Shown here in pieces: positions 44,041-56,785 of a stretch of 64,000 bases of DNA. Below the pieces are notes generated by a model, which had not been told where the DNA came from, did not search any database, and saw nothing but the letters and a program-made list of their open reading frames with translations. The DNA comes from Escherichia coli O157:H7 (GTDB taxonomy: Bacteria > Pseudomonadota > Gammaproteobacteria > Enterobacterales > Enterobacteriaceae): assembly GCF_013167455.1 (NCBI RefSeq), contig NZ_CP038328.1. One strand, 5' to 3'. How positions within the stretch are numbered: position 1 is the first letter of the stretch; the number at the start of each line of letters is the position of its first letter. The position numbers and the translations under genes are program-made.

Positions 44041-45500
44041 TGAAAAAATTACTGCGTCTTTTTTTCCCGCTCTCGCTGCGGGTACGTTTTCTGTTGGCAA
44101 CGGCAGCGGTAGTACTGGTGCTTTCGCTTGCCTACGGAATGGTCGCGCTGATCGGTTATAGCGTCAGTTTCGATAAAACTACGTTTCGGCTGTTACGTGG
44201 CGAGAGCAATCTGTTCTATACCCTTGCGAAGTGGGAAAACAATAAGTTGCATGTCGAGTTACCCGAAAATATCGACAAGCAAAGCCCCACCATGACGCTA
44301 ATTTATGATGAGAACGGGCAGCTTTTATGGGCGCAACGTGACGTGCCCTGGCTGATGAAGATGATCCAGCCTGACTGGCTGAAATCGAATGGTTTTCATG
44401 AAATTGAAGCGGATGTTAACGATACCAGCCTCTTGCTGAGTGGAGATCATTCGATACAGCAACAGTTGCAGGAAGTGCGGGAAGATGATGACGACGCGGA
44501 GATGACCCACTCGGTGGCGGTAAACGTCTACCCGGCAACATCGCGGATGCCAAAGTTAACCATTGTGGTGGTGGATACCATTCCGGTGGAGCTAAAAAGT
44601 TCCTATATGGTCTGGAGCTGGTTTATCTATGTGCTCTCAGCCAATCTGCTGTTAGTGATCCCGCTGCTGTGGGTCGCCGCCTGGTGGAGTTTACGCCCCA
44701 TCGAAGCCCTGGCAAAAGAAGTCCGCGAACTGGAAGAACATAACCGCGAATTGCTCAATCCAGCCACAACGCGAGAACTGACCAGTCTGGTACGAAACCT
44801 GAACCGATTGTTAAAAAGTGAACGCGAACGTTACGACAAATATCGTACAACGCTCACCGACCTGACCCATAGTCTGAAAACGCCACTGGCGGTGCTGCAA
44901 AGTACGCTGCGTTCTCTACGTAGTGAAAAGATGAGCGTCAGTGATGCTGAACCGGTAATGCTGGAGCAAATCAGCCGCATTTCACAGCAAATTGGCTACT
45001 ACCTGCATCGTGCCAGTATGCACGGCGGGACATTGCTCAGCCGCGAGCTGCATCCGGTCGCCCCACTGCTGGACAATCTCACCTCGGCGCTGAACAAAGT
45101 GTATCAACGCAAAGGGGTCAATATCTCTCTCGATATTTCGCCAGAGATCAGCTTTGTCGGTGAGCAGAACGATTTTGTCGAGGTGATGGGCAATGTACTG
45201 GATAATGCCTGTAAATATTGCCTCGAGTTTGTCGAAATTTCTGCAAGGCAAACCGACGAGCATCTCTATATTGTGGTCGAGGATGATGGCCCCGGTATTC
45301 CATTAAGCAAGCGAGAGGTCATTTTCGACCGTGGTCAACGGGTTGATACTTTACGCCCTGGGCAAGGTGTGGGGCTGGCGGTAGCCCGCGAAATCACCAA
45401 GCAATATGAGGGTAAAATCGTCGCCGGAGAGAGCATGCTTGGCGGTGCGCGGATGGAGGTGATTTTTGGTCGCCAGCATTCTACGCCGAAAGATGAATAA
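44040..45500 (+). CDS. phoQ: Sensor histidine kinase PhoQ
   Basis: 486 aa, two TM segments, HisKA/HATPase. Confidence 0.97.
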
Positions 45501-45586
45501 ATATGTCCTTTTATCACCACAGCAAGGCAACCCATTGATTTAATTAAACAACCCACACTGCAAAAAGTGCTAAAAACAGCAAATTG

Positions 45587-45607
45587 ACTACACCATTAAC
45601 TACACCG
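45587..45607 (+). repeat. Satellite att direct repeat, left copy
   Basis: Identical 21-mer to 56564..56584; flanks also similar. Confidence 0.6.
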
Positions 45608-45990
45608 TTCGGTGCACTGTATGAAACAACGTGGAACAAATAGACACAAGAAATATACAGGCGGGTAATCTTTCCAGGGGGAAGCGCACCAATTCATGAG
45701 GGGCGTTAATGTCGATATGGGGATCCCCATAACGGGGCTACCGGATTTTTTTTCCGGTTAACTGTTAATCAGGCTGGTGGGTTTTACCTGTTCGGTAGGT
45801 GTTATGATTATCGTAATACCTTTCCCCCAGTGGGGTAAAAGCTCCAACCGTAACGATGTTCGTTGTGGTTGCCTTGATGGTCTGCGTGGTCATTATGACC
45901 ATTCAGAATATGAAGGGTGACGCTTCCGACTTCCTCAAATTGAGGTTTCCGAAAATATCAGCGGGTTAGCGATTAATCTGACCATTAATT

Positions 45991-46013
45991 AAACTACGAA
46001 AATTTCGTAGTTT
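45991..46013. other. Perfect palindrome AAACTACGAAAATTTCGTAGTTT
   Basis: Read in sequence, ~90 bp downstream of the last satellite ORF; possible terminator or operator. Confidence 0.4.
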
Positions 46014-46100
46014 GTGAATATATTCCGGCCTTCTGATTAACAGTCCTCAGATGTGAGGATGTAGCCAGCGCAATTTTGCGTTATCGGGAATATCAGCAAG

Positions 46101-46382
46101 TTACCGCCGCAGCCGTTCCGGCTTCTTCCAGTGGTACGTTATTTTTTCTTTCTCCCGATACAGTTCAACGCGGCGATTGTAGGCCAGCATTTCAAGAACG
46201 CGGTTCCGTATGTTGCGCATATCAACGCCATTAAGTTCTATACCATCACGGCGCATCACTTCCGCTACAACACGCACATAATTTTCAGCGGTCACGCTGT
46301 CCGGCTGTGTGGCCTGTTCGTCATGCTGCTGGCTGATTCCGGCGACGCGGCGGATTAATCCCAGTAGTTCGGCTTCTGTCAT
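46101..46382 (-). CDS. Hypothetical protein, satellite, cos-proximal
   Basis: 93 aa ORF starting just left of cos copy A. Confidence 0.4.
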   Translation of the reverse strand: MTEAELLGLIRRVAGISQQHDEQATQPDSVTAENYVRVVAEVMRRDGIELNGVDMRNIRNRVLEMLAYNRRVELYREKEKITYHWKKPERLRR

Positions 46383-46416
46383 TGTGCCCCCATCGCTCTG
46401 ATAGTCTGGTGTCGTC

Positions 46417-46464
46417 GGGTCCTTCCTGGAATTATGGCCCGTTACGGGGCGGCGACCTCGCGGT
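46417..46464 (+). repeat. Satellite cos copy A (cosN GGGCGGCGACCT at 46448..46459), followed by a lambda-cosB-like tract to ~46637
   Basis: 48-bp inverted repeat with 47309..47356; downstream TTTATGAGAATTTTCCGG resembles the lambda left end. Confidence 0.8.
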
Positions 46465-46637
46465 TTTTATCTGTTTATGAGAATTTTCCGGCAAAAGTCA
46501 GATCCGATCTTCTTCTCTGTAACAGACTGTTTAACAATGAAAATATTAAAAAAAGAAAGGATCTGACACGAGGCATTTTAGCCAGAAAATGCCATTATCA
46601 GATCCTTTCTCATTTTTGTTCAATAATTGCGCGTCTG

Positions 46638-47180
46638 TTACTCGCCTTTCTTCTGTAGCAACTTTTCCGGTACGTTTCCGGTTGTTTCTTTCAAGTAATC
46701 AGCCAGTATCTGTGGGAGGTTGTCGGCAACTCTGGCACTGGCATTACAGGCTTTAACCACTTCCCTTTTAAGCCTGTCCAGCATGGCGGGGGTAATCTGT
46801 GGGAAGCTCCTTTGCATAGTAAGCGGGAGGCTGTCCATGATTGATGAAATCTGACTCGCCAGCTTTGAAAGCGCGTACAGGCAAAACTCAGTATCAATCA
46901 CGTCACCGCGATCGCGATCGTTTTTAAGTTCCTGCGCCTCTGCCTGTGCTGTCAGTAATCTGATCCTGACTCGTAAAAGTTCATCATCGTCAATCTCGCC
47001 TTTGTCGTTTATAAGCTGGCTAATTGCATTGTTAACCCTATTTTCTATCACGCTGGCAACATCATAAAACGCCTCACGGCCTTTACGCTCAACGGGAGTT
47101 ACTCCCCACTTGTCGAACGCTGTCGCACTTACACGGCAGCTTTTCGCCATGTTTTTTTTGTTCATCAGATGAGATTTCAT
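46638..47180 (-). CDS. Terminase small subunit homologue (Nu1-like), satellite-encoded
   Basis: 180 aa; C-terminal region aligns with the prophage Nu1 in this window (LTAQAEAQELKNDRDRGDVIDTEFCLYALSKLASQISSIMDSLPLTMQRSFPQ vs LTRAQADAQELKNARDSAEVVETAFCTFVLSRIAGEIASILDGIPLSVQRRFPE). Confidence 0.75.
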   Translation of the reverse strand: MKSHLMNKKNMAKSCRVSATAFDKWGVTPVERKGREAFYDVASVIENRVNNAISQLINDKGEIDDDELLRVRIRLLTAQAEAQELKNDRDRGDVIDTEFCLYALSKLASQISSIMDSLPLTMQRSFPQITPAMLDRLKREVVKACNASARVADNLPQILADYLKETTGNVPEKLLQKKGE

Positions 47181-47308
47181 TAATACACCAACTTAATTAC
47201 TGCTTCAGGTTGGTGTATTGCTTGCATCTTTCCCTTTTCATTCATAAAGATAGATCAAACAACAAAACCACCACCACCACCCTGAAAAGGCTCATAAATA
47301 GCGAAAAT

Positions 47309-47356
47309 CCGCGAGGTCGCCGCCCCGTAACGGGCCATAATTCCAGGAAGGACCCG
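47309..47356 (-). repeat. Satellite cos copy B (cosN complement at 47314..47325), inverted relative to copy A
   Basis: Exact 48-bp reverse complement of 46417..46464; first 23 bp also identical to the prophage cos at 25631..25653. Confidence 0.8.
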
Positions 47357-47357
47357 T

Positions 47358-47379
47358 AAAAAAGCCGGATTTCTCCGGC
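47358..47379 (-). terminator. Intrinsic terminator, copy 1 of a repeated satellite hairpin
   Basis: AAAAAAGCCGGATTTCTCCGGC; on the minus strand a hairpin plus T6 just after the stop of 47386..47799. Confidence 0.55.
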
Positions 47380-47385
47380 CTTGTC

Positions 47386-47799
47386 TCAGATGGTTTTCAG
47401 TATGCGATCGATGTCGCCGTCATCGCCCTGGTTTCTGCCATCGTATGCCATGCCAGCTGATACGGCTTGCGGGCTGTGCATGTCCATAAAGTTTTCAAAG
47501 GCTGCGGTAAGTTCCGGCGCAACCTTCGGACGTTCCTGCTCTATGGTCATGCTAAGGATGCTTTTAGCCGTACCAACATCGATACAAGGCACGTTTGCCA
47601 TTGCACGCAACAGCGGCTGATAGTCTTTATGCTCATGAAGCGCCATAATCGCATCAGCGCACGGCTTGTCCTGCTCTTCCAGTTTGTTTAGTTGATATAC
47701 GGCCTCATAGGTTGATAAACCTCTGTCAGCCATTGCCCGCGCTTCGACTTTAAATTTACTCGCCAGCGGTAGCGTCATGATGCTTTCATTCGTTGCCAT
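47386..47799 (-). CDS. Hypothetical protein in the satellite capsid module
   Basis: 137 aa, downstream of the D-like gene. Confidence 0.4.
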   Translation of the reverse strand: MATNESIMTLPLASKFKVEARAMADRGLSTYEAVYQLNKLEEQDKPCADAIMALHEHKDYQPLLRAMANVPCIDVGTAKSILSMTIEQERPKVAPELTAAFENFMDMHSPQAVSAGMAYDGRNQGDDGDIDRILKTI

Positions 47800-47811
47800 C
47801 GTTCCCCCTGC

Positions 47812-48147
47812 TTATCGGGCCAGCGGCTGAACGGATACGCCGGAACCCGCAAAGGCGGCGCATTTTTTCGCATCGGTGTCGACGCTCTCAGGCCAGTTAA
47901 CGGCGGCAATATTGAATATCCCCGTCTTGTAACACTGTGCTGATTTCTGCTTTGACGTGTCCACAGGGTACGAGGTCAGATAAACAGCCTTGCCAGATTC
48001 CTGACCATCCCACGGCTTAAACTCGCCATTGTCTGCCAGCATCAGCGGGGTAAATTCCTGAATAACGCCAGCATCAGCGGCAAAATGTACCAACGTCGTG
48101 GATACCTGCTGACTGCCTGCAAATAACTCAATGTATGGAGTGTCCAT
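47812..48147 (-). CDS. Head decoration protein homologue (gpD-like), satellite-encoded
   Basis: 111 aa; C-terminus KKCAAFAGSGVSV vs prophage [15 protein letters not shown]. Confidence 0.65.
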   Translation of the reverse strand: MDTPYIELFAGSQQVSTTLVHFAADAGVIQEFTPLMLADNGEFKPWDGQESGKAVYLTSYPVDTSKQKSAQCYKTGIFNIAAVNWPESVDTDAKKCAAFAGSGVSVQPLAR

Positions 48148-48159
48148 AGAATCCCCCCG

Positions 48160-49215
48160 TTAACCAATTTTGACGGTAACAAATTTGCGAATATCTGCCG
48201 GTACCGGCTGCGGTGCACTGTGTGTCTGCACGTACTCAATCGCCGGATCGCCGTCCTCAATCCAGTTTTTCGGGTAAAACATGTTTTGTGTTGCGCCCGT
48301 TCTTACCGCTTCCTGATCCATTATCGCACCATAGGCCACCAGCCCTTTATTGTTGGTGTTACCCAGGACCAGCAAATCAGGCTCAAGGAAATATTTTTCG
48401 GTACCATCGCTGTCAGTGTATTTGCCGGAATAGACGATAAGGGCCAGATCACCAAGATAGCCTTTAAAGCTCACCACTTCGCCCAGGTTTTTACAGGCCA
48501 GTTCGGCGGCGGATTCTGAACCACGGGAAAGATCGTACAGCTCACGGAATTTTTTAAAGCTGCGTAATGTGCGCCATACCTCAGCGCCCATAATCATGAC
48601 GTTTGCGGGGCAACCAGCCTGATCAGCATAAAGCTCGATGTCATAGATTGGGTCGTGCATGTCTTTATCCTGCTCGGACCATTTTTTACCCTTGGCCTGC
48701 TCTATGATGCAGTTTTCCGGTATTTTCCAGTCGATTTCATAGCGTTCTATGCCTTCGCCCTCAATGATGTTTTTTCCGGTCGTTACCGCATTCACCGCCA
48801 GCCATTCCACGCGTGCCTTAATGGCGTTTATCTGGCGGCGCATGTTGCCAGTAATCAGGCGCATACGGCGATAGGTAGGGTCGTTAAGCTGTGCCGGATC
48901 TTCTCCAGCCATGCGCATGATGGTTTTCGTTGGATCGATTTCGTGCTTTGGCTTCATGTAGCCAGGTTTGATTGTGCTGGTTTCGTACCCTTTATCGCGC
49001 TGAACCTGGCTACCCACCATAGGCGAACAAAACGCCGACATGGTGACTTCTTCAATGTCCAGGGTATCCAGCATGATGTTTTGCGTGCTGAATGTCGCCA
49101 CGTTCGGGAAAAACAGCGTGGTAAACAGAGGGCTGAATTTAAAATCCGCAATATCCCCGCGATTCAGGTACATGAAAAGCTGGTTAGTGTTAAGTGCCGT
49201 TGCTTTGCCTGCCAT
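48160..49215 (-). CDS. Major capsid protein homologue (gpE-like), satellite-encoded
   Basis: 351 aa; alignable along its length with prophage gpE (e.g. KPGYMKPKHEIDP vs TPGYVKPKHEVNP; YPKNWIEDGDPAIEY vs YPKNWVTTGDPAREF). Confidence 0.85.
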   Translation of the reverse strand: MAGKATALNTNQLFMYLNRGDIADFKFSPLFTTLFFPNVATFSTQNIMLDTLDIEEVTMSAFCSPMVGSQVQRDKGYETSTIKPGYMKPKHEIDPTKTIMRMAGEDPAQLNDPTYRRMRLITGNMRRQINAIKARVEWLAVNAVTTGKNIIEGEGIERYEIDWKIPENCIIEQAKGKKWSEQDKDMHDPIYDIELYADQAGCPANVMIMGAEVWRTLRSFKKFRELYDLSRGSESAAELACKNLGEVVSFKGYLGDLALIVYSGKYTDSDGTEKYFLEPDLLVLGNTNNKGLVAYGAIMDQEAVRTGATQNMFYPKNWIEDGDPAIEYVQTHSAPQPVPADIRKFVTVKIG

Positions 49216-49454
49216 TATTCACCCCCATAATTTTTATGCATCCCAAGCGCCGCAAGTAAATAAGAGCGTACAAGTGAACCTATCGACGGCTCCGGCGTCA
49301 TCAGCGGATCCAGTCCAGCCGCAACGCCAGCTTCATAGTTTTTTTTGTGGCGCTGCTTGAGCACCTCCACGATTTCGGGGCTTATGTACACCGAAACACC
49401 GCTTTTTTTCTCTTCAGCCATAGTAAGAAATTCCTCTTCGACTAAAAAAATCAT
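49215..49454 (-). CDS. Hypothetical small protein upstream of the capsid gene
   Basis: 79 aa ORF, stop overlaps the capsid start; possible internal start at MAEEKK. Confidence 0.35.
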   Translation of the reverse strand: MIFLVEEEFLTMAEEKKSGVSVYISPEIVEVLKQRHKKNYEAGVAAGLDPLMTPEPSIGSLVRSYLLAALGMHKNYGGE

Positions 49455-49586
49455 AACTGGATGTTTATCCAGTCCTGATTATAATCAGAATTGCATTTTA
49501 TGCAATGATATTGAGTTATGTTGCAAATTATGAAATGATTATCCCGATCACGAACGCCAGTGCATCCAAAAACCTCATATGCAAAA

Positions 49587-49624
49587 GCCCGATAAGAACC
49601 CTCTGACCTTATCGGGCTTTTTTT
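49587..49624 (+). terminator. Plus-strand intrinsic terminator, convergent with the satellite operon
   Basis: GCCCGATAAG-n11-CTTATCGGGC followed by T7. Confidence 0.5.
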
Positions 49625-49630
49625 GGGCGC

Positions 49631-49652
49631 AAAAAAGCCGGATTGCTCCGGC
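49631..49652 (-). terminator. Intrinsic terminator, copy 2 of the repeated hairpin
   Basis: AAAAAAGCCGGATTGCTCCGGC just after the stop of 49673..49897. Confidence 0.55.
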
Positions 49653-49672
49653 TATGTGTGCTGTGTGCTGGC

Positions 49673-49897
49673 TCAGTCTCTGATCTCTTTCAGAAATTCT
49701 ATCAATGCATCTATCTGTTCAGGATTTACCGCCAGCATTTCACCGGATAGAGCACATCTCACAAAACCATGCTGATCCTTTTCAATCAGTGCGCCCGTCT
49801 CCAGGAATGCGCGGTAATCATTGATGCTCATCGTCTCCATGTTGTCAGCATGGTATTTATCACGCTGTTTTAATATCTCATCAAATTTCATCGGCAT
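49673..49897 (-). CDS. Hypothetical protein
   Basis: 74 aa ORF with its own terminator. Confidence 0.35.
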   Translation of the reverse strand: MPMKFDEILKQRDKYHADNMETMSINDYRAFLETGALIEKDQHGFVRCALSGEMLAVNPEQIDALIEFLKEIRD

Positions 49898-49993
49898 TGT
49901 TTTTTTCCTCTGTTGTGTCTGTTTGTTTCAGATAGTAACTATGCCTGACCGTGACGAAAACCCGGTAATGCGCCATACCGTTTCAACTGGTGC

Positions 49994-50016
49994 AAAAAAA
50001 GCCGGATTTCTCCGGC
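49994..50016 (-). terminator. Intrinsic terminator, copy 3 of the repeated hairpin
   Basis: AAAAAAAGCCGGATTTCTCCGGC just after the stop of 50024..50296. Confidence 0.55.
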
Positions 50017-50023
50017 TGTTTGA

Positions 50024-50296
50024 TTAGCTGTCCTGGTAATTGCGCCATATTTCATCACCAGCACCATCTATACCCATTTCGGCATAAGTGCGATCGACTG
50101 CCTTTTTCAGGTCTCCGAAATTATCCGGCGGCTCCGGTGCCCTCTGTGCCTTCCTTGAACATTCCAGCCGTCGCATCGTGATGTGATGCCGTTCCTTGTC
50201 TGTCTCCACCAGCTGCATGACTTCACCCCATCGCGCCGCCGCCCTCCGGTAAAAGCCTTTCGCCTCCAGTTCCTCCGCTATGCGGTCATGTACCAT
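50024..50296 (-). CDS. Small regulator, possibly PerC-family (family assignment tentative)
   Basis: 90 aa from MVHDRIAEELEAKGFYRRAAARWGEVM...; resemblance to PerC/Pch is from memory only. Confidence 0.35.
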   Translation of the reverse strand: MVHDRIAEELEAKGFYRRAAARWGEVMQLVETDKERHHITMRRLECSRKAQRAPEPPDNFGDLKKAVDRTYAEMGIDGAGDEIWRNYQDS

Positions 50297-50306
50297 CGTC
50301 ACCCCC

Positions 50307-50717
50307 TCAGAACGAAATATCATCACCGTAAGGGTCATCGCCTCCCGCTGGTGGCTGATTACCCTGTGTGCCTGTGGTTTTGCGTCTGTTCCCGCCTGGA
50401 CGTGCCGCGCGGGCACTGATTACGCTGTCTGCGATAACCTGCCAGCCCTGCCGCGTTTCTCCGTTCTGTCCGGTCCACTGGCTTACCTGCATCGTGCCGG
50501 ATACGCTGGCAACATCGCCTTTTTGATGTTTAGCCAGGAAGCCGGCCTGTTTGCCAAATGCGATGACCGATAACCATAACGTCGCCTGTCCGTCCTGTGC
50601 CTGGCTGCATGGCAAAGATACCGCCATACGCGCCAGCGTCATCGGTGTGCCCTTGCTGGTCTGTTTTACCTGCGGGTCGTCCACCAGCCGCCCGTAAGCG
50701 GCTATCTGTGCCGTCAT
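50307..50717 (-). CDS. ssb: Single-stranded DNA-binding protein
   Basis: 136 aa, Gly/Gln-rich linker and acidic C-terminal tail ...DDPYGDDISF. Confidence 0.75.
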   Translation of the reverse strand: MTAQIAAYGRLVDDPQVKQTSKGTPMTLARMAVSLPCSQAQDGQATLWLSVIAFGKQAGFLAKHQKGDVASVSGTMQVSQWTGQNGETRQGWQVIADSVISARAARPGGNRRKTTGTQGNQPPAGGDDPYGDDISF

Positions 50718-50995
50718 AATTCCACCTCTCCGGTTTTAACGTTGATGGTTGTTACCTGTTCCGCTTCGGCAATCTCCCGTTCTGTCAGCGTGGCAAAGTT
50801 TGCCGCCGCCGTGGTCATGAATGCGCTTATCAGGTCGGGATGTTCCTTCGCGTATCCTTCCCGCGTGTGGCGGTCTATCGTTCTGATTGCCACCTTTAAG
50901 GTGTGCTCAGTCATGTCTAACGCTTTATATTTTGGCTCTGTTCTGTCTCTGCGTTTTTGGGTCATTTCTCGCAACCTCTCACTTTTTCGCCTCAC
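50714..50995 (-). CDS. Hypothetical protein
   Basis: 93 aa ORF immediately downstream of the iteron region. Confidence 0.35.
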   Translation of the reverse strand: MRRKSERLREMTQKRRDRTEPKYKALDMTEHTLKVAIRTIDRHTREGYAKEHPDLISAFMTTAAANFATLTEREIAEAEQVTTINVKTGEVEL

Positions 50996-51167
50996 TTTTT
51001 CAAGCGTCTCACTTCGTCGCAGTTGGGATTTTCGGTTTTTCTATGTGTGTGTTTCATAAGTATTTTTTTACCCCTCACTTTTGAGGATGTATACAGGTCG
51101 AAAAGTGAGGGAGAGCGGGCTAATTTTGGCCCTCTTTCTATCCCCCTCGCTTTTGCTCCTCACTTTT
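50978..51167. repeat. Putative satellite replication origin: at least six CTCACTTTT-type iterons in both orientations
   Basis: Copies at 50978, 50991, 51008 (variant), 51074, 51101 (inverted), 51146 (variant), 51159; directly 3' of rep. Confidence 0.55.
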
Positions 51168-52566
51168 ATAGCGGCGCTACATCATCCCCATCGATACGAA
51201 TAACCCCATCTTTTTCCAGCTTGTACAGCCAGCGCCGGAAGTTTTTCATTTCATACCCCAGCTTTTTCATGTCATCACGTAACAGCGGGATCGTGCACTT
51301 GTCGCCGTTCTGTGTGCGTGAACGGATGCACCCCCATAGCGCGGTATGGTTTTCCGTCTTGTTCCCTGCCTCCTCGATGCGCTCCAGTTCAACAGGAGGG
51401 CGCGGATCATCCACCACCACCAGCGACGTGATTAATTCACCGTCAGCGTCGGTAAAAAGCTCCACCACGCGTAAGTCATATGCGGCTTCTTTGAGTTCCT
51501 CCGCGTCCTTCATTTTGGTGCATGAGATAACCAGCGCTTCGCTTCCTGCGTCCTCCCTGCGTATCCGGTATTCAGCATCCAGCGAAGCACGAAATGCACT
51601 GGAACCGCGCGCGCCTTTCGTCTCATCCTTGCCGGAATGGTGAACCACCAGCACCGTGGCCCCTGTGCGTCGTTTCAGTTCGTCACAACCACGGATAAAC
51701 GCCCCCATATCACGGGAATCATTTTCATCATTCCCACCAAAGCAACGCGCCAGCGTATCCAGAATAATCATGCGTACAGGTTTACCCGTTTCCCGCTCCA
51801 CCTGACGGGCAGCGATAACCATTTCATCAACATCAAGCGGGGCAGCCGGAAAGATGGGGCGGTTTACCAGATACAGATTTTTCACCTGCTCATCGTGCAC
51901 AACCTCCCAGGCTTTTACACGACGCGGAACACCTATACCGCCTTCACCAACCACATAGAGAACCGCACCATGTGCAACCCTGCGGCCTCCCCACTGGCGA
52001 CCAGTGGCAACATGGCACGCCCACGATCCGGCAAGGAATGATTTATAGGACCCGCTAGCCCCGTATATGCTGCATAGCGATACCGCCGGAATAATCCCCT
52101 TAACCACGTAATCCAGTTGCGTGTCGTATCCGGTAGATCCAACGCTCATCGGTAGCGTGGTTTTTCGCTGGTGGTTTTTTTCTTCCGCCGGCTCTTTCCC
52201 GCGCACCCGTTCCAGGTATTCGCGCCAGTTCTCCCGCATATGGCTGTGCATCCCTTCGGGGTAATAATTCGCATCAGTTACACCCGCCGCCGCCAGCTTG
52301 TGCGCAATGGCATTAATATTTGATGGCCTGATGTGGCCTGCCTTGTACAGCCGGACACAATAGCGCCCCTCGTCGATGATTCTCAGTTCTGCCAGTTCAT
52401 CCAGTTGATCATCAGCCAGCACAACGGGAGGCACATTATCGCCAGCCAGTCGCCCGTCCTGTTCCTGCCACTGTTTCGCATGTGCCCAGGCATCACTACC
52501 CGCAAAAATAATGACTTCGGTCATCTTGTCGTAAGGCTGTTTTTTTAAGTTCGGTGCGCTTTTCAT
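51166..52566 (-). CDS. Replication protein, RecA-fold P-loop ATPase (RepA/AAA_25-like helicase)
   Basis: 466 aa; Walker A-like GASGSYKS and Walker B-like RMIILDTLA; upstream of iterons. Confidence 0.65.
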   Translation of the reverse strand: MKSAPNLKKQPYDKMTEVIIFAGSDAWAHAKQWQEQDGRLAGDNVPPVVLADDQLDELAELRIIDEGRYCVRLYKAGHIRPSNINAIAHKLAAAGVTDANYYPEGMHSHMRENWREYLERVRGKEPAEEKNHQRKTTLPMSVGSTGYDTQLDYVVKGIIPAVSLCSIYGASGSYKSFLAGSWACHVATGRQWGGRRVAHGAVLYVVGEGGIGVPRRVKAWEVVHDEQVKNLYLVNRPIFPAAPLDVDEMVIAARQVERETGKPVRMIILDTLARCFGGNDENDSRDMGAFIRGCDELKRRTGATVLVVHHSGKDETKGARGSSAFRASLDAEYRIRREDAGSEALVISCTKMKDAEELKEAAYDLRVVELFTDADGELITSLVVVDDPRPPVELERIEEAGNKTENHTALWGCIRSRTQNGDKCTIPLLRDDMKKLGYEMKNFRRWLYKLEKDGVIRIDGDDVAPL

Positions 52567-52862
52567 TTCTTGCCCCTGAATCCGTTAACCATGGTTTTCA
52601 GCTTCTGGATGTTTGCCCGTGCCCTGGCGTTGCTGGTGGGCACGTTATGCGGCGCGGTCTGTACCAGAGAAAAATCACGCCGGAACTGATAAACAGGCAT
52701 CACGCAATCATATTCGTAACCTTCACGGCGGTAGGTTACGCGCCGTTCTTCCACGCCCTTAATCATTACCGTGCCGCCGTACTGGTCGCGGTAAATATCA
52801 CCGCGCGTAAATTTAGGGTGAGTGTTGCCACTGGCAGTTAAGCCAGAATATTTAAGTTTCAT
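52563..52862 (-). CDS. Hypothetical protein
   Basis: 99 aa, stop overlaps rep start. Confidence 0.35.
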   Translation of the reverse strand: MKLKYSGLTASGNTHPKFTRGDIYRDQYGGTVMIKGVEERRVTYRREGYEYDCVMPVYQFRRDFSLVQTAPHNVPTSNARARANIQKLKTMVNGFRGKK

Positions 52863-52867
52863 TATTT

Positions 52868-53101
52868 TTATTCTCCGGTGTGCTGTTCTTTATATCTGTC
52901 GTGCAATAGATCTATTTCTTGCAGTTCCATTATTACAGGCTCAAGAAGCGTTATTAATGCCGTGGCAATTCTTGATTTTTGTTTGTCGCGTTCATTGTCG
53001 CCAAGTGTTTCAAGCCATATGCGCAATATTTCCATCATGTTTTCACTGTGAGAAAGTGCAAGAAATGCGCGGTCTATTGTTTGGTGGTAAATATCACGCA
53101 T
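52868..53101 (-). CDS. Hypothetical protein
   Basis: 77 aa, tightly packed in the operon. Confidence 0.3.
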   Translation of the reverse strand: MRDIYHQTIDRAFLALSHSENMMEILRIWLETLGDNERDKQKSRIATALITLLEPVIMELQEIDLLHDRYKEQHTGE

Positions 53102-53558
53102 GGCTTACATCCTCAGGAAATTTTCTTCTATAACGCGCCTCTGCCACATATTCCGCATAATCGGCGGCGATATTCAGTACATCAAGCCCCGTTGATTTAT
53201 ATTCTCTCGTGGAAAGTAAGAAAAAAGCCGCTCTAATAAGTTCTGGCATTGACGAAAGCGCATCAGCCGCATCATCAGGAACGCCGGAAAATTCCTGTTT
53301 CAGGGAATTAAAACGATCATCACGCATAACCCCCCCATTTTCACAATCAGCAATCAGGATAGCTTTGGCCTCATTCAGCGCCGTATCAGCACTAAATTGC
53401 ATGACAGCCAGTGAGTGAGGAACGAAAGCACCGGCATATTCTGTTTCGCTGGTGGCGTGCTTATGTGCCCTGTCCGCGATAACAGAAATATCAATCAGCG
53501 CGTGCATCAGCGTTTTGATGGCTTCGGCGGCTGCGTCCGGTGTGGTTTTATTGTGCAT
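53094..53558 (-). CDS. Hypothetical protein
   Basis: 154 aa, overlapping neighbours on both sides. Confidence 0.4.
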   Translation of the reverse strand: MHNKTTPDAAAEAIKTLMHALIDISVIADRAHKHATSETEYAGAFVPHSLAVMQFSADTALNEAKAILIADCENGGVMRDDRFNSLKQEFSGVPDDAADALSSMPELIRAAFFLLSTREYKSTGLDVLNIAADYAEYVAEARYRRKFPEDVSHA

Positions 53559-53760
53559 AAAGCATCCCCTGAATATTCGTGTTAATCATTCCGGCACGTT
53601 TTGTGATTTCCTGTAATGATTCCCTTGTGGCGACAATTGCTTCATCTGGTAAGTGGTAATTACACACCACGCGACCTTTATCCACATTGACCAGTAGCTG
53701 CCCTGTGAATTTCTCACGAAACTGAATGCGGTTAAGGTCAGTAAGTGACAGATTAATCAT
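53548..53760 (-). CDS. Hypothetical protein
   Basis: 70 aa from MINLSLTDL...; RBS AGGAGG; ATGATTAA overlap with the upstream gene. Confidence 0.35.
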   Translation of the reverse strand: MINLSLTDLNRIQFREKFTGQLLVNVDKGRVVCNYHLPDEAIVATRESLQEITKRAGMINTNIQGMLYAQ

Positions 53761-53950
53761 GGCGCACCTCCTGACGAATACGGGCGGCAAATACAGCAAC
53801 ACAACCGGACGGGCAACGGTTACGCGCTTCGCGTTCCGTCCAGGCGGTTACGTGGATGATTTGAGATTCTCCGGCACTCAGTGCCAGAAAACGCCACACA
53901 AAGGCCGTTTGTGTGTGTACAAGGTGTGGTATATGATTTACGGCAACCAT
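53753..53950 (-). CDS. Hypothetical protein, first gene of the satellite leftward operon
   Basis: 65 aa from MVAVNHIPHL...; RBS GGAG 5 nt upstream. Confidence 0.35.
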   Translation of the reverse strand: MVAVNHIPHLVHTQTAFVWRFLALSAGESQIIHVTAWTEREARNRCPSGCVAVFAARIRQEVRHD

Positions 53951-54040
53951 AACGGCTCCTAGTTTACGTTGTTGGTTAGACGCCCCGTATGTGTTCCCAG
54001 CACTGCGGGGCGTTGATTTTTGTGTAATGGCAAGTACAAT

Positions 54041-54080
54041 GGTAATTACCATGTAGGTATAGCAATAAAGGGTAATTACC
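54041..54080. promoter_or_regulatory. Two perfect 10-bp palindromes GGTAATTACC, 30 bp apart, in the divergent control region
   Basis: Copies at 54041..54050 and 54071..54080, each followed by ATGT; the second abuts the RHH start codon. Confidence 0.5.
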
Positions 54081-54254
54081 ATGTCAACACCATTAGAAAA
54101 ACGTTCGCCTCCATACCAAATGCGATTACCGGAAGACTTCAGAGCGCAGCTAGAAGAAGCTGCTAAGGCCGATGGCGACACATCTTTAGCCACTTGGATT
54201 AAACGCGTTCTCCGCAAAGAATTACAGCAACGCGGCATAGAACCCAAAGGATAA
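54081..54254 (+). CDS. Ribbon-helix-helix (Arc/MetJ-like) DNA-binding protein
   Basis: 57 aa by manual translation (MSTPLEKRSPPYQMRLPEDFRAQLEEAAKADGDTSLATWIKRVLRKELQQRGIEPKG); below the ORF-track cutoff. Confidence 0.5.
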   Translation: MSTPLEKRSPPYQMRLPEDFRAQLEEAAKADGDTSLATWIKRVLRKELQQRGIEPKG

Positions 54255-54296
54255 AAACTATCAGCGCCGTGGTGTGAGGTATTACGGCGCATTGCT

Positions 54297-54485
54297 ATGC
54301 AGGACAACACAATGACCGATAAAGAATTGACCAAAACATTATCACCGGCACGGAAAAGACGGCGCAGAAAGATAGAGCATGAATCAGAAAGATTCGCGCC
54401 ATGTGCTTTTGCCCTTGAGCAATTCCTTAAAGAGTACAGGGAAACGCGCCCATTGCAGGTATGGCAACGAACTGAACCAGACTGA
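54297..54485 (+). CDS. Hypothetical small basic protein
   Basis: 62 aa with KRRRRK; downstream of the RHH gene, before the + strand terminator. Confidence 0.3.
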   Translation: MQDNTMTDKELTKTLSPARKRRRRKIEHESERFAPCAFALEQFLKEYRETRPLQVWQRTEPD

Positions 54486-54578
54486 TAGCATTGCCCACCA
54501 GCCTGATAGCGGCTATCATCCCCGTGCTTATGTTTGGGATCATATACACATAAGGCGCAGCGGGTTATCTGTTCAGAA

Positions 54579-54608
54579 AGGCGGCTCCATTTCGGGGCCG
54601 CTTTTTTT
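54579..54608 (+). terminator. Intrinsic terminator closing the RHH transcription unit
   Basis: GCGGCTCC-ATTTC-GGGGCCGC followed by T7. Confidence 0.5.
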
Positions 54609-54754
54609 ATGCCTGAAAAACCCCAATTTTGTGGTTTTCCAGTCTCACCAGGGCGAACGAATCCCCGCCCACGTTCTGGCGTATATTCAATCTTCATGGT
54701 TATAGCTCTGTGTTCAGATGATTGATGTGTGGCGGCTGTGTGCCGCCAGCGTGA

Positions 54755-54943
54755 TTAATGAACTGCCTTGCAGCTATCCTTCCAGGCCAGAACCTCGGAT
54801 AAAGACCAGCCAACGGAACGACCGCCAAGTTTACGACGTGATGGGAATTGTCCGGCCTTTTCCAGGCGGTAGCGACACGTACGGCTAAGGCCGGTTAGTT
54901 TTTCGCATTCTTTTTCACGTATAAACCGATCAGTGCTTAACAC
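54755..54943 (-). CDS. alpA: AlpA-family transcriptional regulator (excisionase-like)
   Basis: 62 aa; pattern ...LTGLSRTCRYRLEKAGQFP...GGRSVGWSLSEVLAW typical of AlpA. Confidence 0.75.
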   Translation of the reverse strand: MLSTDRFIREKECEKLTGLSRTCRYRLEKAGQFPSRRKLGGRSVGWSLSEVLAWKDSCKAVH

Positions 54944-55307
54944 TATTGCCCCCTTTCGTTTCTTAAAGAGTCATCAGGTGTCTTATTGTGTCGTATTGTT
55001 CCCGCTAGAGTGATGAATGGCAAATACTGAGGATGTATGATTTACAGAAAATGAAAAAGTAAGAATAAAATCTTTTAAATTCATGTTAATACAAAGGCAT
55101 AAAATATTGTTCCATGCCTTTTTTCTCGCTCTTTAAAGAGTGATTCGCTAGTGTATAAAAAACCAGTAACACATTAAAAATCAGCTACTTATAAATCCGT
55201 ACGCTTTTTCGCCTCTTGTTCGTAGTTGTTCCACATTGTTGCTCATTGTTGCACGTTGTATCTGTTCGCATATCCAGTATGCGCATACTGAAAAAACACG
55301 AAAAAAA

Positions 55308-56558
55308 TTATTTTCTTCTGGCTACTGGTAGCGTGGTTACGTTTTCATGTGTTCCCGCCAGTATCCCTAACCGCTCCGTCCACATATCCAGCGCATTGCG
55401 TTTCGCATCCAGATAACGGGAATGATTATAAACTCGCTGCATTCCTGGCATCTGGTGGCCTGTAAGCTGCTCCACGACATGCGGATCAACGCCTAAATCG
55501 TTCAGCATGGTTGTAAAGGTGCGCCGGATGTCATGCAGTGACCAGTGAGGGTGATTAAGCCTCCTGTGCGCTAATCTTCCATACTGCGATACGCTGGCCT
55601 CCTGTTTCACTTCCCCCAGCAATAAGCCCGTGTGCCTGTTCTGCTCCACCAGCTGCGTGATGAACGGCAGTATTGCTTCCGGTATAGGCCGGAATATGGC
55701 TACCTTCGTTTTGCTGTGCTCCTTCGGAACGGTCCAGAGCATTTCGGTAAAATCCCACTCGCTGATCTCCGATAACCTCAGTTCTACCGTCCGGCATCCG
55801 AACACAATCAGGAGGCGGATTAACGCGATGTAGTAGGGGGAGAATATTTTTTTGTCCAGTGCCTGCAATAATTCGCCCAGTTCTTTGGTGCTTAAGACAC
55901 GCTCGCTTATATCCGGTTTTTTCCCAACGTCCGCCACACTCATATCATCAAGAACGTTGCTGATTGCATAGCGCCGCCTCCGGCAGAACTTAAGCGCCTG
56001 TTTGCACGTCTGTAGCAAGAATCCGGCAGTAACAGGCGTTCGCTTTGCCACCTGGTCAAAACAGGCCAGCCAGTGCCGTAGCTCGCATTTATCCAGCGGC
56101 ATAGCACCAATGTGCTGTATTACGTGATTATTAAGGCGCTTTTTCAGGGCGGCATAATCCACGCGGTTTTCCTTTGCGTACGACTCAAGCCAGTAGGTGA
56201 GCGCATCGCCAACCGTTACCGGCTTTAACGCTTCCTGTACGGTGTAATTAAGCTCATGACGTGGATTTTTCCCCTCTGCCAGCCATGCGCGACACTGGGC
56301 GGCTTTTTCCCTGGCTGATTTCAGGCTCAGATCAGGATAATTTCCCAGCTTAATGCGTTCCGGTGGTGCCCCCCTTCCCGTTCCGGCCCTGTAAGTGAAA
56401 TACCAGGTTAAAAGGCCACTGGTTGAATGCCTGACGCTCAGGTTTCCACCGTCATTAAGAAAGGCTGTTTTTTGGGCGGGTGTGCCGTTGATTTTCCTCA
56501 GCTGTGTATCGCTCAGTTTGTTAAGTGCTCTGCTCATAATTTTGATTCCGGTCATCAC
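55308..56558 (-). CDS. int: Tyrosine integrase (P4/satellite-type)
   Basis: 416 aa; C-terminal catalytic residues; adjacent to the right att repeat. Confidence 0.9.
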   Translation of the reverse strand: MMTGIKIMSRALNKLSDTQLRKINGTPAQKTAFLNDGGNLSVRHSTSGLLTWYFTYRAGTGRGAPPERIKLGNYPDLSLKSAREKAAQCRAWLAEGKNPRHELNYTVQEALKPVTVGDALTYWLESYAKENRVDYAALKKRLNNHVIQHIGAMPLDKCELRHWLACFDQVAKRTPVTAGFLLQTCKQALKFCRRRRYAISNVLDDMSVADVGKKPDISERVLSTKELGELLQALDKKIFSPYYIALIRLLIVFGCRTVELRLSEISEWDFTEMLWTVPKEHSKTKVAIFRPIPEAILPFITQLVEQNRHTGLLLGEVKQEASVSQYGRLAHRRLNHPHWSLHDIRRTFTTMLNDLGVDPHVVEQLTGHQMPGMQRVYNHSRYLDAKRNALDMWTERLGILAGTHENVTTLPVARRK

Positions 56559-56563
56559 AATTA

Positions 56564-56584
56564 ACTACACCATTAACTACACCG
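56564..56584 (+). repeat. Satellite att direct repeat, right copy (preceded by a tandem ATTAACTACACC unit)
   Basis: Identical 21-mer to 45587..45607. Confidence 0.6.
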
Positions 56585-56785
56585 ATCGTTGCACAAAGGG
56601 CTACAACGTGAAACAAGCTGGAACAAGGAAAATCACAAATCTGTTTATAATCAAAAATATAATGAACAATCTGAAACATTATGAAACGGCAAAAAACACT
56701 AATTGATAAAATATGTCCATACTTCACGCATTACGTTAAGCATCCGTTATAATCGGTTGCAGATACCAGCCTGTGGATGCTTAAC

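What the first reader, a model, noticed from the sequence alone, without database searches (positions are those of the whole stretch)
47358..50016. Three near-identical intrinsic terminators punctuate the satellite operon, plus a convergent terminator
The hairpin AAAAAAGCCGGATT(T/G)CTCCGGC occurs three times (47358, 49631, 49994), each a few nucleotides after a minus-strand stop, reading as hairpin plus T6 on the transcribed strand. Reusing the same terminator within one operon suggests read-through control by antitermination. At 49587..49624 a strong plus-strand terminator faces the operon, preceded by an AT-rich tract with the palindrome TTGCATTTTATGCAA, which could mark a short antisense or small RNA.
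Basis: seen in the sequence. Interest (0 to 1): 0.5.

Follow-up and report, generated by a model that had tools for sequence, protein, structure and literature searches.

The report
Reused terminator hairpin at satellite module boundaries
Three copies of one textbook transcription-stop hairpin mark the ends of separate gene cassettes in an E. coli O157:H7 phage satellite, and the same hairpin recurs across this satellite family where gene modules have been swapped; this is a modest, tidy finding.

Summary
AAAAAAGCCGGATT(T/G)CTCCGGC occurs three times, against 0 expected by chance. On the minus strand it reads as a 7-bp G+C-rich stem, a GNRA tetraloop and T6-7, placed 5-19 nt after a stop codon.

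The island lies between phoQ and roxA. It is a classical Gram-negative phage-inducible chromosomal island (PICI) of the EcCICFT073 type.

The hairpin is used throughout this family. I found 168 copies in 80 related islands, behind at least 8 unrelated gene ends. It is also present in about 40 of 45 close relatives of the capsid-forming PICI EcCIEDL933. Homology breakpoints pile up at T2, about 23-fold over expectation. The orf74 cassette is a present/absent unit flanked by two hairpin copies.

T2 is followed by a conserved bidirectional terminator and then a conserved promoter with a palindromic operator. The three hairpins therefore end separate transcription units. They do not punctuate one operon.

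My best reading is ordinary intrinsic terminators that insulate cassettes and also serve as recombination joints. Regulated antitermination is not shown: I found no nut site and no Q- or N-like gene. It is not excluded either, because rpp and orf74 have no recognisable promoter of their own. The plus-strand small RNA remains possible but untested.

The parts
47358..47380 (-). T1: hairpin GGCCGGA-GAAA-TCCGGCT plus T6. It is the terminator of the capsid operon (orf68, capsid, decoration, orf137) and directly abuts cosQ (ACGGGTCCT) of the adjacent cos site.
   Evidence: Identical at this position in 73 of 80 related loci.
49631..49653 (-). T2: hairpin AGCCGGA-GCAA-TCCGGCT plus T6. It is the terminator of the 74-aa accessory gene and the main mosaic breakpoint of the island family.
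   Evidence: 62 of 641 homology endpoints fall within 12 nt of it.
49994..50017 (-). T3: hairpin AGCCGGA-GAAA-TCCGGCT plus T7. It lies at the end of the alpA-to-perC (pchE-like) gene string.
   Evidence: 17 homology endpoints fall at it.
49963..49980 (-). Weak second hairpin after T3 (CGGTA..TACCG followed by GGTTTTCG, -6.5 kcal/mol).
49583..49625 (+). Bidirectional terminator with a 14-bp stem and 11-nt loop. The tail is T7 on the plus strand but only U4 on the minus strand, so it is stronger in the plus direction. It always accompanies the capsid-operon promoter.
   Evidence: Stems are invariant and loops variable in 56 distinct sequences.
49478..49505 (-). Candidate sigma-70 promoter of the capsid operon: TTGCAT, 16 nt, TATAAT. 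The -10 lies inside the invariant palindrome TGATTATAATCA, which also reads TATAAT on the plus strand.
49490..49506 (.). Perfect palindrome ATTGCATTTTATGCAAT over the -35 and spacer of the promoter; a candidate operator. A second, imperfect copy lies at 49520-49536, 30 bp away.
   Evidence: The half-sites are conserved across relatives.
49447..49474 (-). Conserved leader hairpin (ACTGGAT-AAAC-ATCCAGT, -9.8 kcal/mol), then TATGA and T7, just after the promoter and before the orf68 ribosome-binding site. The U-run is not adjacent to the stem, so this is not a canonical terminator.
49654..50017 (-). The orf74 cassette: T3 hairpin, leader and the 74-aa gene, up to the start of the T2 hairpin. The repeat period is 364 bp. 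The unit is bounded by two direct copies of the hairpin and is absent in relatives such as L168. The gene is 42.7% G+C, against 55-59% for its upstream neighbours.
47386..49421 (-). Capsid operon: orf68, a lambda E-like major capsid protein, a lambda D-like decoration protein, and orf137 (similar to the C-terminal part of a head maturation protease).
47281..47356 (-). Lambda-type cos site (cosQ GGGTCCT, cosN GGGCGGCGACCT) immediately downstream of T1. Its inverted partner lies at 46416-46491. Together they flank the Rpp (TerS-like) gene at 46638-47180.
   Evidence: Two cos sites and Rpp are described for EcCICFT073 in PMC6092414 and PMC6739421.

Best explanation
The three hairpins are ordinary Rho-independent terminators. 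They end three separate transcription units of a classical Gram-negative PICI. T3 ends the alpA-replication-perC string. T2 ends a small accessory cassette (orf74). T1 ends the capsid operon, just before the cos site and rpp.

I infer that they work as insulators. Accessory regulators such as the PerC/PchE-like gene can then be expressed in the quiescent island without turning on the capsid operon and rpp. The capsid operon runs from its own operator-controlled promoter downstream of T2 and the bidirectional terminator.

The copies are near-identical because they are copies of one family-wide boundary hairpin, not three independent inventions. The same 7-bp stem with a GNRA loop follows at least 8 unrelated gene ends across this island family. 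This 23-30-bp repeat is where cassettes have been gained, lost or exchanged. Exchanges include the swap between the lambda-like capsid module and the HK97-like module of capsid-forming PICIs.

orf74 and rpp have no recognisable promoter. They are most simply expressed by the fraction of polymerases that read through T3 and T1, that is, by attenuation.

Shown here: the sequence anatomy, the conservation, the contexts and the breakpoints. Inferred: that termination occurs in vivo, the insulating role, recombination at the hairpin, and leaky read-through.
For: Anatomy. Each copy has a 7-bp stem with 5 G-C pairs, a GAAA or GCAA tetraloop and T6-7. Energies are -12.1 to -13.6 kcal/mol, and each lies 5-19 nt after a co-oriented stop codon. 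No comparably strong minus-strand terminator lies between alpA and T3.

Generic terminator form. The exact 20-specified-base sequence occurs in at least 120 unrelated bacterial contigs, one copy each, where my own estimate of chance gives about 0.5. One of these is an enterobacterial locus with no homologue of any island protein.

Family-wide reuse. There are 168 copies in 80 islands, behind at least 8 unrelated upstream contexts and ahead of 4 downstream contexts. Loops vary (GAAA, GCAA, GTAA, GAAG, GAAAA) while the stem is almost invariant, and two of the three stem variants seen give G-U wobbles.

Boundary role. Homology with L002, L003 and L004 ends at 49652, 49632 and 49623 respectively. 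In the 80-locus comparison, 62 of 641 endpoints fall within 12 nt of T2, which covers 0.4% of the island, and 17 fall at T3. BLAST matches in 1000 E. coli genomes break at the same points. The orf74 cassette is flanked by hairpin copies, is absent in L168 and has a lower G+C content. The same hairpin lies 281 nt upstream of the capsid gene in about 40 of 45 EcCIEDL933-type capsid-forming PICIs.

Separate units. The promoter, operator and leader downstream of T2 are conserved in 56 distinct sequences.

Accessory status. The hairpin is absent from the phage collection and is found in only 794 of 5426 E. coli genomes.
Against: No transcript data were available, so termination itself is inferred.

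No sigma-70-like promoter scoring at least 7 of 12 lies between T1 and rpp, and only one 7 of 12 candidate lies between T3 and orf74. Strong terminators directly upstream of genes the island needs fit regulated read-through as well as leaky read-through.

The stem never shows a compensatory double change, so the RNA structure has no covariation support. Conservation could equally reflect a constraint at the DNA level.

Breakpoints do not pile up at T1. There the hairpin, cosQ and cosN move as one block.

The exact hairpin arises independently in unrelated bacteria. Convergence, rather than shared ancestry, therefore cannot be fully excluded for individual copies.
Confidence: 0.6

Rival explanations
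1. Conditional terminators. In the quiescent island the hairpins stop transcription. After helper-phage induction, a processive antitermination factor lets polymerase run from alpA, or from the capsid promoter, through T3, T2 and T1 into rpp. The factor would be an unrecognised island protein, or a helper Q-type protein loaded at an island promoter.
For: All island genes are co-oriented (PMC6092414). rpp and orf74 follow strong terminators and have no recognisable promoter. In lambda the equivalent gene, Nu1, is reached only by Q-modified polymerase crossing cos (established knowledge). The capsid promoter has a DNA palindrome in its -35 and spacer region, a -10-like TATGAT about 20 nt into the transcript, and a hairpin followed by a U-run. 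This layout is loosely reminiscent of Q-dependent late promoters.
Against: No boxA-like sequence lies near the hairpins on the transcribed strand. No island ORF matches a Q or N family in PHROGs. The island's AlpA is a 62-aa PF05930 protein, whereas the Pseudomonas antiterminator called AlpA has eight helices and a Q21-like fold; it gave no sequence match at E of 1 or below. The capsid promoter region has no similarity to any phage in the collection and does not share the layout of lambda pR'. Identical terminators are not needed for processive antitermination, and there is no conserved flank for a sequence-specific RNA-binding antiterminator. T2 is backed by a second terminator and followed by its own promoter.
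Confidence: 0.2
2. The hairpin is mainly a DNA-level element: a dedicated cassette-exchange or recombination site, or an accessory part of the cos packaging signal. On this view termination is incidental.
For: Breakpoints are strongly enriched at T2 and T3, and the orf74 cassette is flanked by direct hairpin repeats. T1 is fused to cosQ in all relatives. In 20 loci the copy behind ssb is followed by a degenerate cos-like sequence.
Against: The T-run is conserved with the hairpin, and every copy lies on the transcribed strand just after a stop codon. Two of the three stem variants seen give G-U wobbles, which preserve an RNA helix but not a DNA helix. There is no integron-type integrase, and the hairpin is far shorter than an attC site. 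T2 and T3 in the window have no cos sequence next to them. Lambda, as I recall its right-end sequence (not fetched here), has no hairpin before cosQ, and the hairpin is absent from the phage collection. Ordinary homologous recombination at a 23-30-bp repeat is enough to explain the pattern.
Confidence: 0.1
3. The three copies are independent convergent terminators. A 7-bp G+C-rich stem with a GNRA loop is simply an optimal design, so the identity of the copies carries no history and no extra function.
For: The exact sequence occurs in at least 120 unrelated genomes across many phyla, including a locus in an enterobacterium with no homologue of any island protein.
Against: In E. coli the hairpin is found in only 794 of 5426 genomes, so it is not used by core genes. 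Within this island family it follows at least 8 unrelated genes with an invariant stem. Homology breakpoints and a cassette gain/loss polymorphism coincide with it.
Confidence: 0.1

Closest known systems
Canonical Rho-independent (intrinsic) terminators of E. coli with GNRA tetraloops
   Same: A G+C-rich 7-bp stem, a 4-nt GNRA loop, 6-7 U residues immediately 3' of the stem, and a position just after a stop codon on the coding strand.
   Different: Nothing structural differs. The unusual point is that one exact hairpin is reused three times in 2.7 kb and throughout an island family.
Phage 'morons': accessory genes carried with their own promoter and factor-independent terminator between conserved phage genes (from my own knowledge of Hendrix, Juhala and colleagues)
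   Same: orf74, and perC in other arrangements, is a present/absent insert between conserved modules. It ends in its own terminator and has a deviant G+C content.
   Different: A convincing promoter belonging to the cassette was not found. The cassettes all share the same terminator, which is not part of the moron definition.
Conserved boundary or 'linker' sequences at module junctions in lambdoid phage mosaics (modular evolution, Susskind and Botstein; from my own knowledge)
   Same: A short conserved sequence lies at gene or module boundaries, and homology between relatives starts and stops there.
   Different: Here the linker is itself a functional-looking terminator, and the elements are satellites rather than phages. 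Recombination at the site is inferred, not demonstrated.
EcCICFT073-type Gram-negative PICIs and the capsid-forming PICI EcCIEDL933 (PMC6092414, PMC6739421, bioRxiv 10.1101/2022.09.08.507074)
   Same: The island has the int, alpA, replication, ssb, perC, lambda-like capsid and decoration, Rpp and two-cos-site layout of EcCICFT073. A capsid-forming PICI occupies the same phoQ-roxA site in another O157:H7 strain and shares T2 and T3.
   Different: The three PICI papers I searched contain no occurrence of 'terminator'.
Lambda late-operon control (pR', Q, tR') and N/nut antitermination
   Same: Co-oriented genes are interrupted by strong terminators, and a TerS-like gene lies just beyond cos.
   Different: No nut site, no Q or N homologue and no pR'-like sequence were found.
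Intra-operon attenuating terminators, such as the one in rpsU-dnaG-rpoD or after gene VIII of filamentous phage (from my own knowledge)
   Same: A terminator sits between a gene needed in large amounts (capsid) and one needed in small amounts (rpp), with no promoter in between.
   Different: The efficiency of T1 and the actual rpp transcript are unknown.

Membership tests
Rho-independent terminator | G+C-rich stem-loop of about 5-14 bp with a short loop | tested here: met
   The stem has 7 bp, 5 of them G-C, or 9 bp in T1. The loop is a GNRA tetraloop. Energies are -12.1 to -13.6 kcal/mol.
Rho-independent terminator | Run of U residues immediately 3' of the stem | tested here: met
   T6, T6 and T7 directly follow the stem. 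Run lengths of T5-T8 are seen in relatives.
Rho-independent terminator | Located downstream of, and co-oriented with, a coding region | tested here: met
   Each lies 5, 19 or 6 nt after a minus-strand stop codon. This holds for 168 copies in relatives.
Rho-independent terminator | Transcript 3' ends at the U-run in vivo or in vitro | not testable with these tools
   No transcript data were available. The PICI papers do not mention terminators.
Processive antitermination system (lambda N/nut type) | boxA and boxB nut site in the transcript upstream of the terminators, and an N-like protein | tested here: not met
   The only boxA-like hits in the island are the cos-internal CGCTATTTA (minus strand) and a pair at 55127-55142 in the alpA-int intergenic region, none near the hairpins. 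No N family match was found.
Processive antitermination system (Q/qut type) | Q protein, a Q-binding element in a late promoter, a -10-like pause element, and a promoter-proximal terminator | tested here: inconclusive
   The island has no Q homologue. The capsid promoter has a palindrome, a -10-like TATGAT and a leader hairpin with a U-run. It shows no similarity to phage late promoters or to lambda pR'. A helper Q acting in trans was not testable.
Pseudomonas AlpA-type antiterminator | Homology to P. aeruginosa AlpA (eight helices, Q21-like fold) | tested here: not met
   The island's AlpA is 62 aa and belongs to PF05930. Its only match among solved structures is a 73-aa AlpA-family protein. 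The Pseudomonas protein is described as eight helices with a Q21-like fold.
Moron-type accessory cassette | Presence/absence between conserved neighbours | tested here: met
   The window has perC, hairpin, orf74, hairpin and bidirectional terminator in that order. L168 and the class of 13 loci with a second perC variant have perC, hairpin and bidirectional terminator with no orf74.
Moron-type accessory cassette | Own terminator | tested here: met
   T2 follows orf74 by 19 nt.
Moron-type accessory cassette | Own promoter | tested here: inconclusive
   Only one weak candidate was found: TTTTCG, 17 nt, TACTAT, scoring 7 of 12.
Moron-type accessory cassette | Base composition different from neighbours | tested here: met
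   orf74 is 42.7% G+C, against 54.9% for perC and 58.9% for ssb.
Classical Gram-negative PICI (EcCICFT073 type) | int, alpA and a replication gene, with unidirectional genes, in an island of about 10-15 kb at a fixed chromosomal site | tested here: met
   RefSeq annotation of the identical region shows about 11 kb between phoQ and roxA with all genes on one strand. AlpA matches its Pfam family.
Classical Gram-negative PICI (EcCICFT073 type) | Lambda-type cos site(s) plus Rpp (a TerS-like protein), and capsid and decoration homologues | tested here: met
   A 76-nt inverted pair carrying cosQ and cosN flanks a TerS-like gene. This matches the published description.
Classical Gram-negative PICI (EcCICFT073 type) | Induction and transfer by a helper phage | not testable with these tools
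   This needs an experiment. It has been shown for EcCICFT073 in PMC6092414, not for this island.
REP/BIME intergenic palindromes | Hundreds of copies per E. coli genome in core intergenic regions, with no obligatory T-run | tested here: not met
   The hairpin is present in only 794 of 5426 genomes, with a median of 2 places per genome. It is always followed by a T-run.
Integron attC cassette sites | IntI integrase, and an imperfect palindrome of 57-141 bp with R and L boxes | tested here: not met
   The only recombinase is a P4-type tyrosine integrase at the island end. The element is an 18-nt hairpin.

The most novel reading that the evidence does not exclude
The hairpins are conditional stops. 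In the quiescent island they wall off the virulence-regulator cassettes, the capsid operon and rpp from one another. After helper-phage induction an as yet unrecognised factor makes RNA polymerase terminator-resistant, so that T3, T2 and especially T1 are read through and rpp is switched on. The factor would be one of the island's proteins of unknown function, or a helper Q-type protein loaded at the palindrome-bearing capsid promoter. This would be a satellite that borrows or mimics late-gene antitermination. The plus-strand RNA ending at 49624 could act as a counter-transcript at the same control point.
Probability: 0.15. Interest if true: 0.6.

Novelty: new member of a known kind. Interest (0 to 1): 0.3.

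Why it matters
The transcription map of Gram-negative PICIs has not been described. The papers I could search on EcCICFT073 and EcCIEDL933 do not mention terminators.

This analysis proposes where the transcription units of these islands end. It also shows that the capsid operon has its own conserved promoter and operator. And it shows that the junction between the replication/accessory half and the packaging half is marked by one conserved hairpin in both classical and capsid-forming PICIs.

This gives a concrete picture of how cargo genes such as perC/pchE-like virulence regulators, and even whole packaging modules, could be swapped. It also gives simple targets for testing how rpp and the capsid genes are timed. 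The result is useful for annotating and engineering these satellites, but it does not change how terminators or satellites are understood.

Tried and rejected
1. AlpA as antiterminator. I recalled that AlpA of P. aeruginosa is a Q-like antiterminator. The island's AlpA is a 62-aa PF05930 protein, while the Pseudomonas protein has eight helices and a Q21-like fold, and there was no sequence match. The shared name is a coincidence.

2. The capsid-forming PICI EcCIEDL933. I first suspected the island was this element. It is not: it has no TerL, portal or protease gene, and it matches the EcCICFT073 type. A capsid-forming PICI does sit at the same site in another O157:H7 strain.

3. orf74 as RgdR. 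This is wrong. RgdR is the 99-aa DUF4222 protein at 52563-52862, which carries R20-G21-D22.

4. The 76-nt inverted repeat around the TerS-like gene as an invertible segment. It is in fact the known pair of cos sites flanking Rpp.

5. Known RNA families. No Rfam family matches anywhere in the island at E of 1 or below.

6. The genome-contig scan for the hairpin. It was useful only to show that the sequence is a generic terminator form.

7. The hairpin in helper phages. It is absent from the phage collection.

8. The capsid promoter as a relative of phage late promoters. There was no BLAST similarity, and lambda pR' has a different layout.

9. nut or boxA sites, and further copies of the operator palindrome elsewhere in the island. 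I found no boxA-like site near the hairpins and no further operator copy.

10. A consensus fold of the putative plus-strand RNA. Only the terminator is solid. The other helix merely reflects the DNA operator repeats.

11. Published EHEC small-RNA and Term-seq work. HnrS lies in other prophages, and no supplementary 3'-end table is held.


Full report
**Observation.** The pattern AAAAAAGCCGGATTKCTCCGGC matches exactly at 47358-47379, 49631-49652 and 49995-50016. Nothing else in the 64-kb window matches even with two mismatches, and shuffled sequence gave 0.00 matches. On the minus strand each copy reads (A/G)GCCGGA-G(A/C)AA-TCCGGCT followed by T6, T6 or T7. That is a 7-bp stem with five G-C pairs, a GNRA tetraloop and a U-run. 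Hairpin energies are -13.6, -12.1 and -12.1 kcal/mol. The stems begin 5, 19 and 6 nt after the stop codons of three minus-strand ORFs: the 137-aa ORF, the 74-aa ORF and the PerC-family ORF. Similarity among the three copies is limited to the hairpin and its T-run. The plus-strand terminator (14 perfect pairs at 49583-49596 and 49608-49621, then T7) and the palindrome (ATTGCATTTTATGCAAT, 49490-49506) are both present.

**Where we are.** The window is E. coli O157:H7. The same 5 kb is 100% identical in EC4115, TW14359 and many other strains. RefSeq annotation places an island of about 11 kb between phoQ and roxA, with every gene on the minus strand. In transcription order these are: integrase, AlpA, Icd-like genes, several small ORFs, the 99-aa DUF4222 protein, a RepA-type helicase, SSB, a PerC-family regulator, a 74-aa ORF, a 68-aa ORF, major capsid, head decoration, a 137-aa ORF, a terminase-small-subunit-like gene and a 93-aa ORF. 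PHROGs confirms the lambda E-like capsid, the D-like decoration protein and the TerS-like protein.

This is the gene set of the classical Gram-negative PICI EcCICFT073. That element carries capsid and decoration homologues, two cos sites and the TerS-like protein Rpp (PMC6092414 and PMC6739421). It is not the capsid-forming PICI EcCIEDL933. The DUF4222 protein carries R20-G21-D22 and is therefore RgdR.

The 76-nt inverted repeat at 46416-46491 and 47281-47356 contains the lambda-type elements cosQ (GGGTCCT) and cosN (GGGCGGCGACCT). It corresponds to the two published cos sites. T1 abuts cosQ directly.

**The hairpin is a generic terminator form.** The hits come from Bacteroidota, Bacillota, Pseudomonadota and other phyla, almost always as a single copy per contig. 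From the stated size of the collection, I estimate about 0.5 matches by chance for 20 specified bases. The one Enterobacteriaceae hit encodes no homologue of any island protein. So this is a form that evolution reaches repeatedly.

**Within E. coli it belongs to these islands.** The hairpin is absent from 50,697 phage records. Only 794 of 5426 complete E. coli genomes hold a match, with a median of two places per genome. The listed matches that carry annotation lie at PerC-family genes. It is therefore not a core-genome terminator and not a REP-type repeat.

I fetched 80 loci through the capsid protein (92-100% identity). These carry 168 copies, all on the transcribed strand. The copies follow at least eight unrelated upstream sequences: three PerC variants, orf74, orf137, two SSB ends and two other gene ends. 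They precede four kinds of downstream sequence: the bidirectional terminator plus capsid promoter, a cos site, a degenerate cos-like sequence, and the orf74 leader. The loop varies (GAAA, GCAA, GTAA, GAAG, and GAAAA in L002). The stem is almost invariant, and two of the three stem variants seen give G-U wobbles. The loop variant tends to travel with the upstream gene.

In capsid-forming PICIs of the EcCIEDL933 type, fetched through their HK97-type capsid gene, the same hairpin lies 281 nt upstream of that gene in about 40 of 45 loci. A second copy lies 354 nt further upstream in about 16 of them. More distant capsid-forming PICIs (66-70% capsid identity) lack it.

**The hairpins are mosaic boundaries.** Homology between the window and L002 ends at 49652, the last base of T2, and resumes at the SSB stop codon. 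L003 is a capsid-forming PICI at the same phoQ-roxA site in another O157:H7 strain. Its homology with the window starts at 49632, the first base of T2. Homology with L004 ends at 49623, the end of the bidirectional terminator.

Across the 80 loci, 62 of 641 internal homology endpoints fall within 12 nt of T2. That stretch is 0.4% of the island, so the enrichment is about 23-fold, and it is the top-ranked bin. Seventeen endpoints fall at T3 and 23 at the bidirectional terminator. None falls at T1, because the hairpin, cosQ and cosN form one conserved block there. The breaks in that region lie at the inner ends of the two cos arms. BLAST matches over 1000 E. coli genomes break at the same coordinates.

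The orf74 unit has a 364-bp period and is flanked by two direct copies of the hairpin. It is missing in L168 and in a further class of loci, where perC runs straight into one hairpin and then the bidirectional terminator. The gene is 42.7% G+C, against 55-59% for perC and ssb. This is the pattern expected for gain or loss of a moron-like cassette by recombination at the repeated hairpin.

**Not one operon.** Between alpA and T3 there is no comparably strong minus-strand terminator. T3 therefore ends the long early gene string.

T2 is followed 6 nt later by the 14-bp-stem bidirectional terminator. After that comes a block that is conserved in 56 distinct sequences. The block has four parts:
- An imperfect operator-like copy at 49520-49536.
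- The perfect palindrome ATTGCA-N5-TGCAAT.
- TTGCAT, a 16-nt spacer and TATAAT, with the -10 lying inside the invariant palindrome TGATTATAATCA.
- A leader hairpin (CTGGAT-NAAC-ATCCAG) followed by TATGA, a T-run and the orf68 ribosome-binding site.

It reads most simply as an operator. No further copy exists elsewhere in the island.

The capsid operon therefore has its own promoter, and T1 ends it. My own promoter scan found nothing scoring at least 7 of 12 between T1 and rpp, and only one weak 7 of 12 candidate between T3 and orf74. Those two genes probably depend on read-through.

**Antitermination.** I looked for the parts such a system would need. No boxA-like sequence lies near the hairpins on the transcribed strand. 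No island ORF matches a Q or N family; most of the small ORFs belong to PHROGs families of unknown function. The island's AlpA is a 62-aa PF05930 protein. The Pseudomonas antiterminator of the same name has eight helices and a Q21-like fold, and it gave no sequence match. The capsid promoter has no similarity to any phage in the collection. Lambda pR', which I fetched for comparison, has a different layout.

Processive antiterminators do not require identical terminators. The lack of any conserved flank argues against a factor that binds RNA next to the hairpin. The promoterless position of rpp and orf74 does keep regulated read-through alive as a minority hypothesis.

**The plus-strand terminator and a possible small RNA.** The bidirectional terminator has T7 on the plus strand but only U4 on the minus strand. 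It travels with the capsid promoter, not with the hairpin. In the class of loci where a cos-like remnant of about 170 nt separates them, it stays next to the promoter. That suggests a role tied to plus-strand transcription out of the promoter region.

Two plus-strand promoter candidates exist. TGGATG-16-TATAAT scores 9 of 12 and shares the palindromic -10, giving an RNA of about 134 nt. TTGAGT-17-AATGAT scores 8 of 12, giving an RNA of about 80 nt. A consensus fold shows only the terminator as a solid element, and Rfam has no match. The small-RNA idea is plausible and untested.

**Verdict.** These are ordinary intrinsic terminators in form. The added value is that they are three copies of one family-wide boundary hairpin. 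That hairpin separates independently acquired or exchanged units of Gram-negative PICIs. It also marks the point at which the lambda-like and HK97-like packaging modules are interchanged. None of this appears in the three PICI papers I searched, which contain no occurrence of 'terminator'. It is still a new instance of known things: terminators, moron-like cassettes and mosaic junctions. Interest is modest.

Noticed in passing
window 45501-56600; L003 (NZ_CP038324.1): O157:H7 strains carry two different satellites at the same phoQ-roxA site. The window strain type has a classical PICI with lambda-like capsid and decoration genes. Strain NE 1169-1 has a capsid-forming PICI with TerL, portal, protease and an HK97-type capsid. 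The two share the int-to-orf74 half and the terminal 93-aa gene. The switch point is exactly the T2 hairpin.
   Followed up: partly
L004 8480-8650 (minus strand) and 20 of the IMG/VR loci L125-L204: In one arrangement the hairpin behind ssb is followed by a degenerate cos-like sequence (ACGGGTCCTCCTGGCGGGG...ACGGGGCGGAGGGGCGCGGAAAAAAGC) of about 170 nt before the bidirectional terminator. It could be a decayed third cos site or a cos of different specificity.
   Followed up: no
window 49939-50067 (minus strand): RefSeq annotates a 42-aa hypothetical protein here, and a frameshifted 'trigger factor' in other strains. It runs straight through the T3 hairpin and overlaps the end of perC, so it is most likely an annotation artefact.
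   Followed up: no
window 47386-47799 (minus strand): The 137-aa ORF that ends the capsid operon matches the C-terminal part of a head maturation protease family (phrog_53, E = 4.7e-9). This recalls the lambda Nu3 scaffold nested in the C protease gene, so it may be a scaffold-like protein.
   Followed up: no
window 47181-47260 (minus strand): Just before the rpp start codon there is an 11-bp-stem hairpin (AATACACCAAC...GTTGGTGTATT), and no obvious Shine-Dalgarno sequence. This hints at translational control or a different start codon for rpp.
   Followed up: no
L205 (lambda 44707-44722) compared with L004 8336-8352: The 12-mer CAAAATGCAATC in the lambda 6S RNA region just upstream of tR' is identical to the right half of the capsid-promoter operator in relatives of the island. 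The window itself has AAAATGCAAT. This may be chance.
   Followed up: partly
window 49475-49486: The invariant 12-bp palindrome TGATTATAATCA reads TATAAT on both strands. It could therefore serve overlapping divergent promoters that compete for RNA polymerase.
   Followed up: partly
one search hits H1 and H2 (NZ_AP026082.1, NZ_CP038398.1): In some O157:H7 strains an IS3-family element (IS1203-like) is inserted in this island within the 5-kb region. The insertion splits the TerS-like gene annotation in two.
   Followed up: no
window 52563-52862 (minus strand): The DUF4222 protein annotated as hypothetical is the published LEE regulator RgdR. It has R20-G21-D22 and is 99 aa, as described in PMC3378721.
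   Followed up: partly
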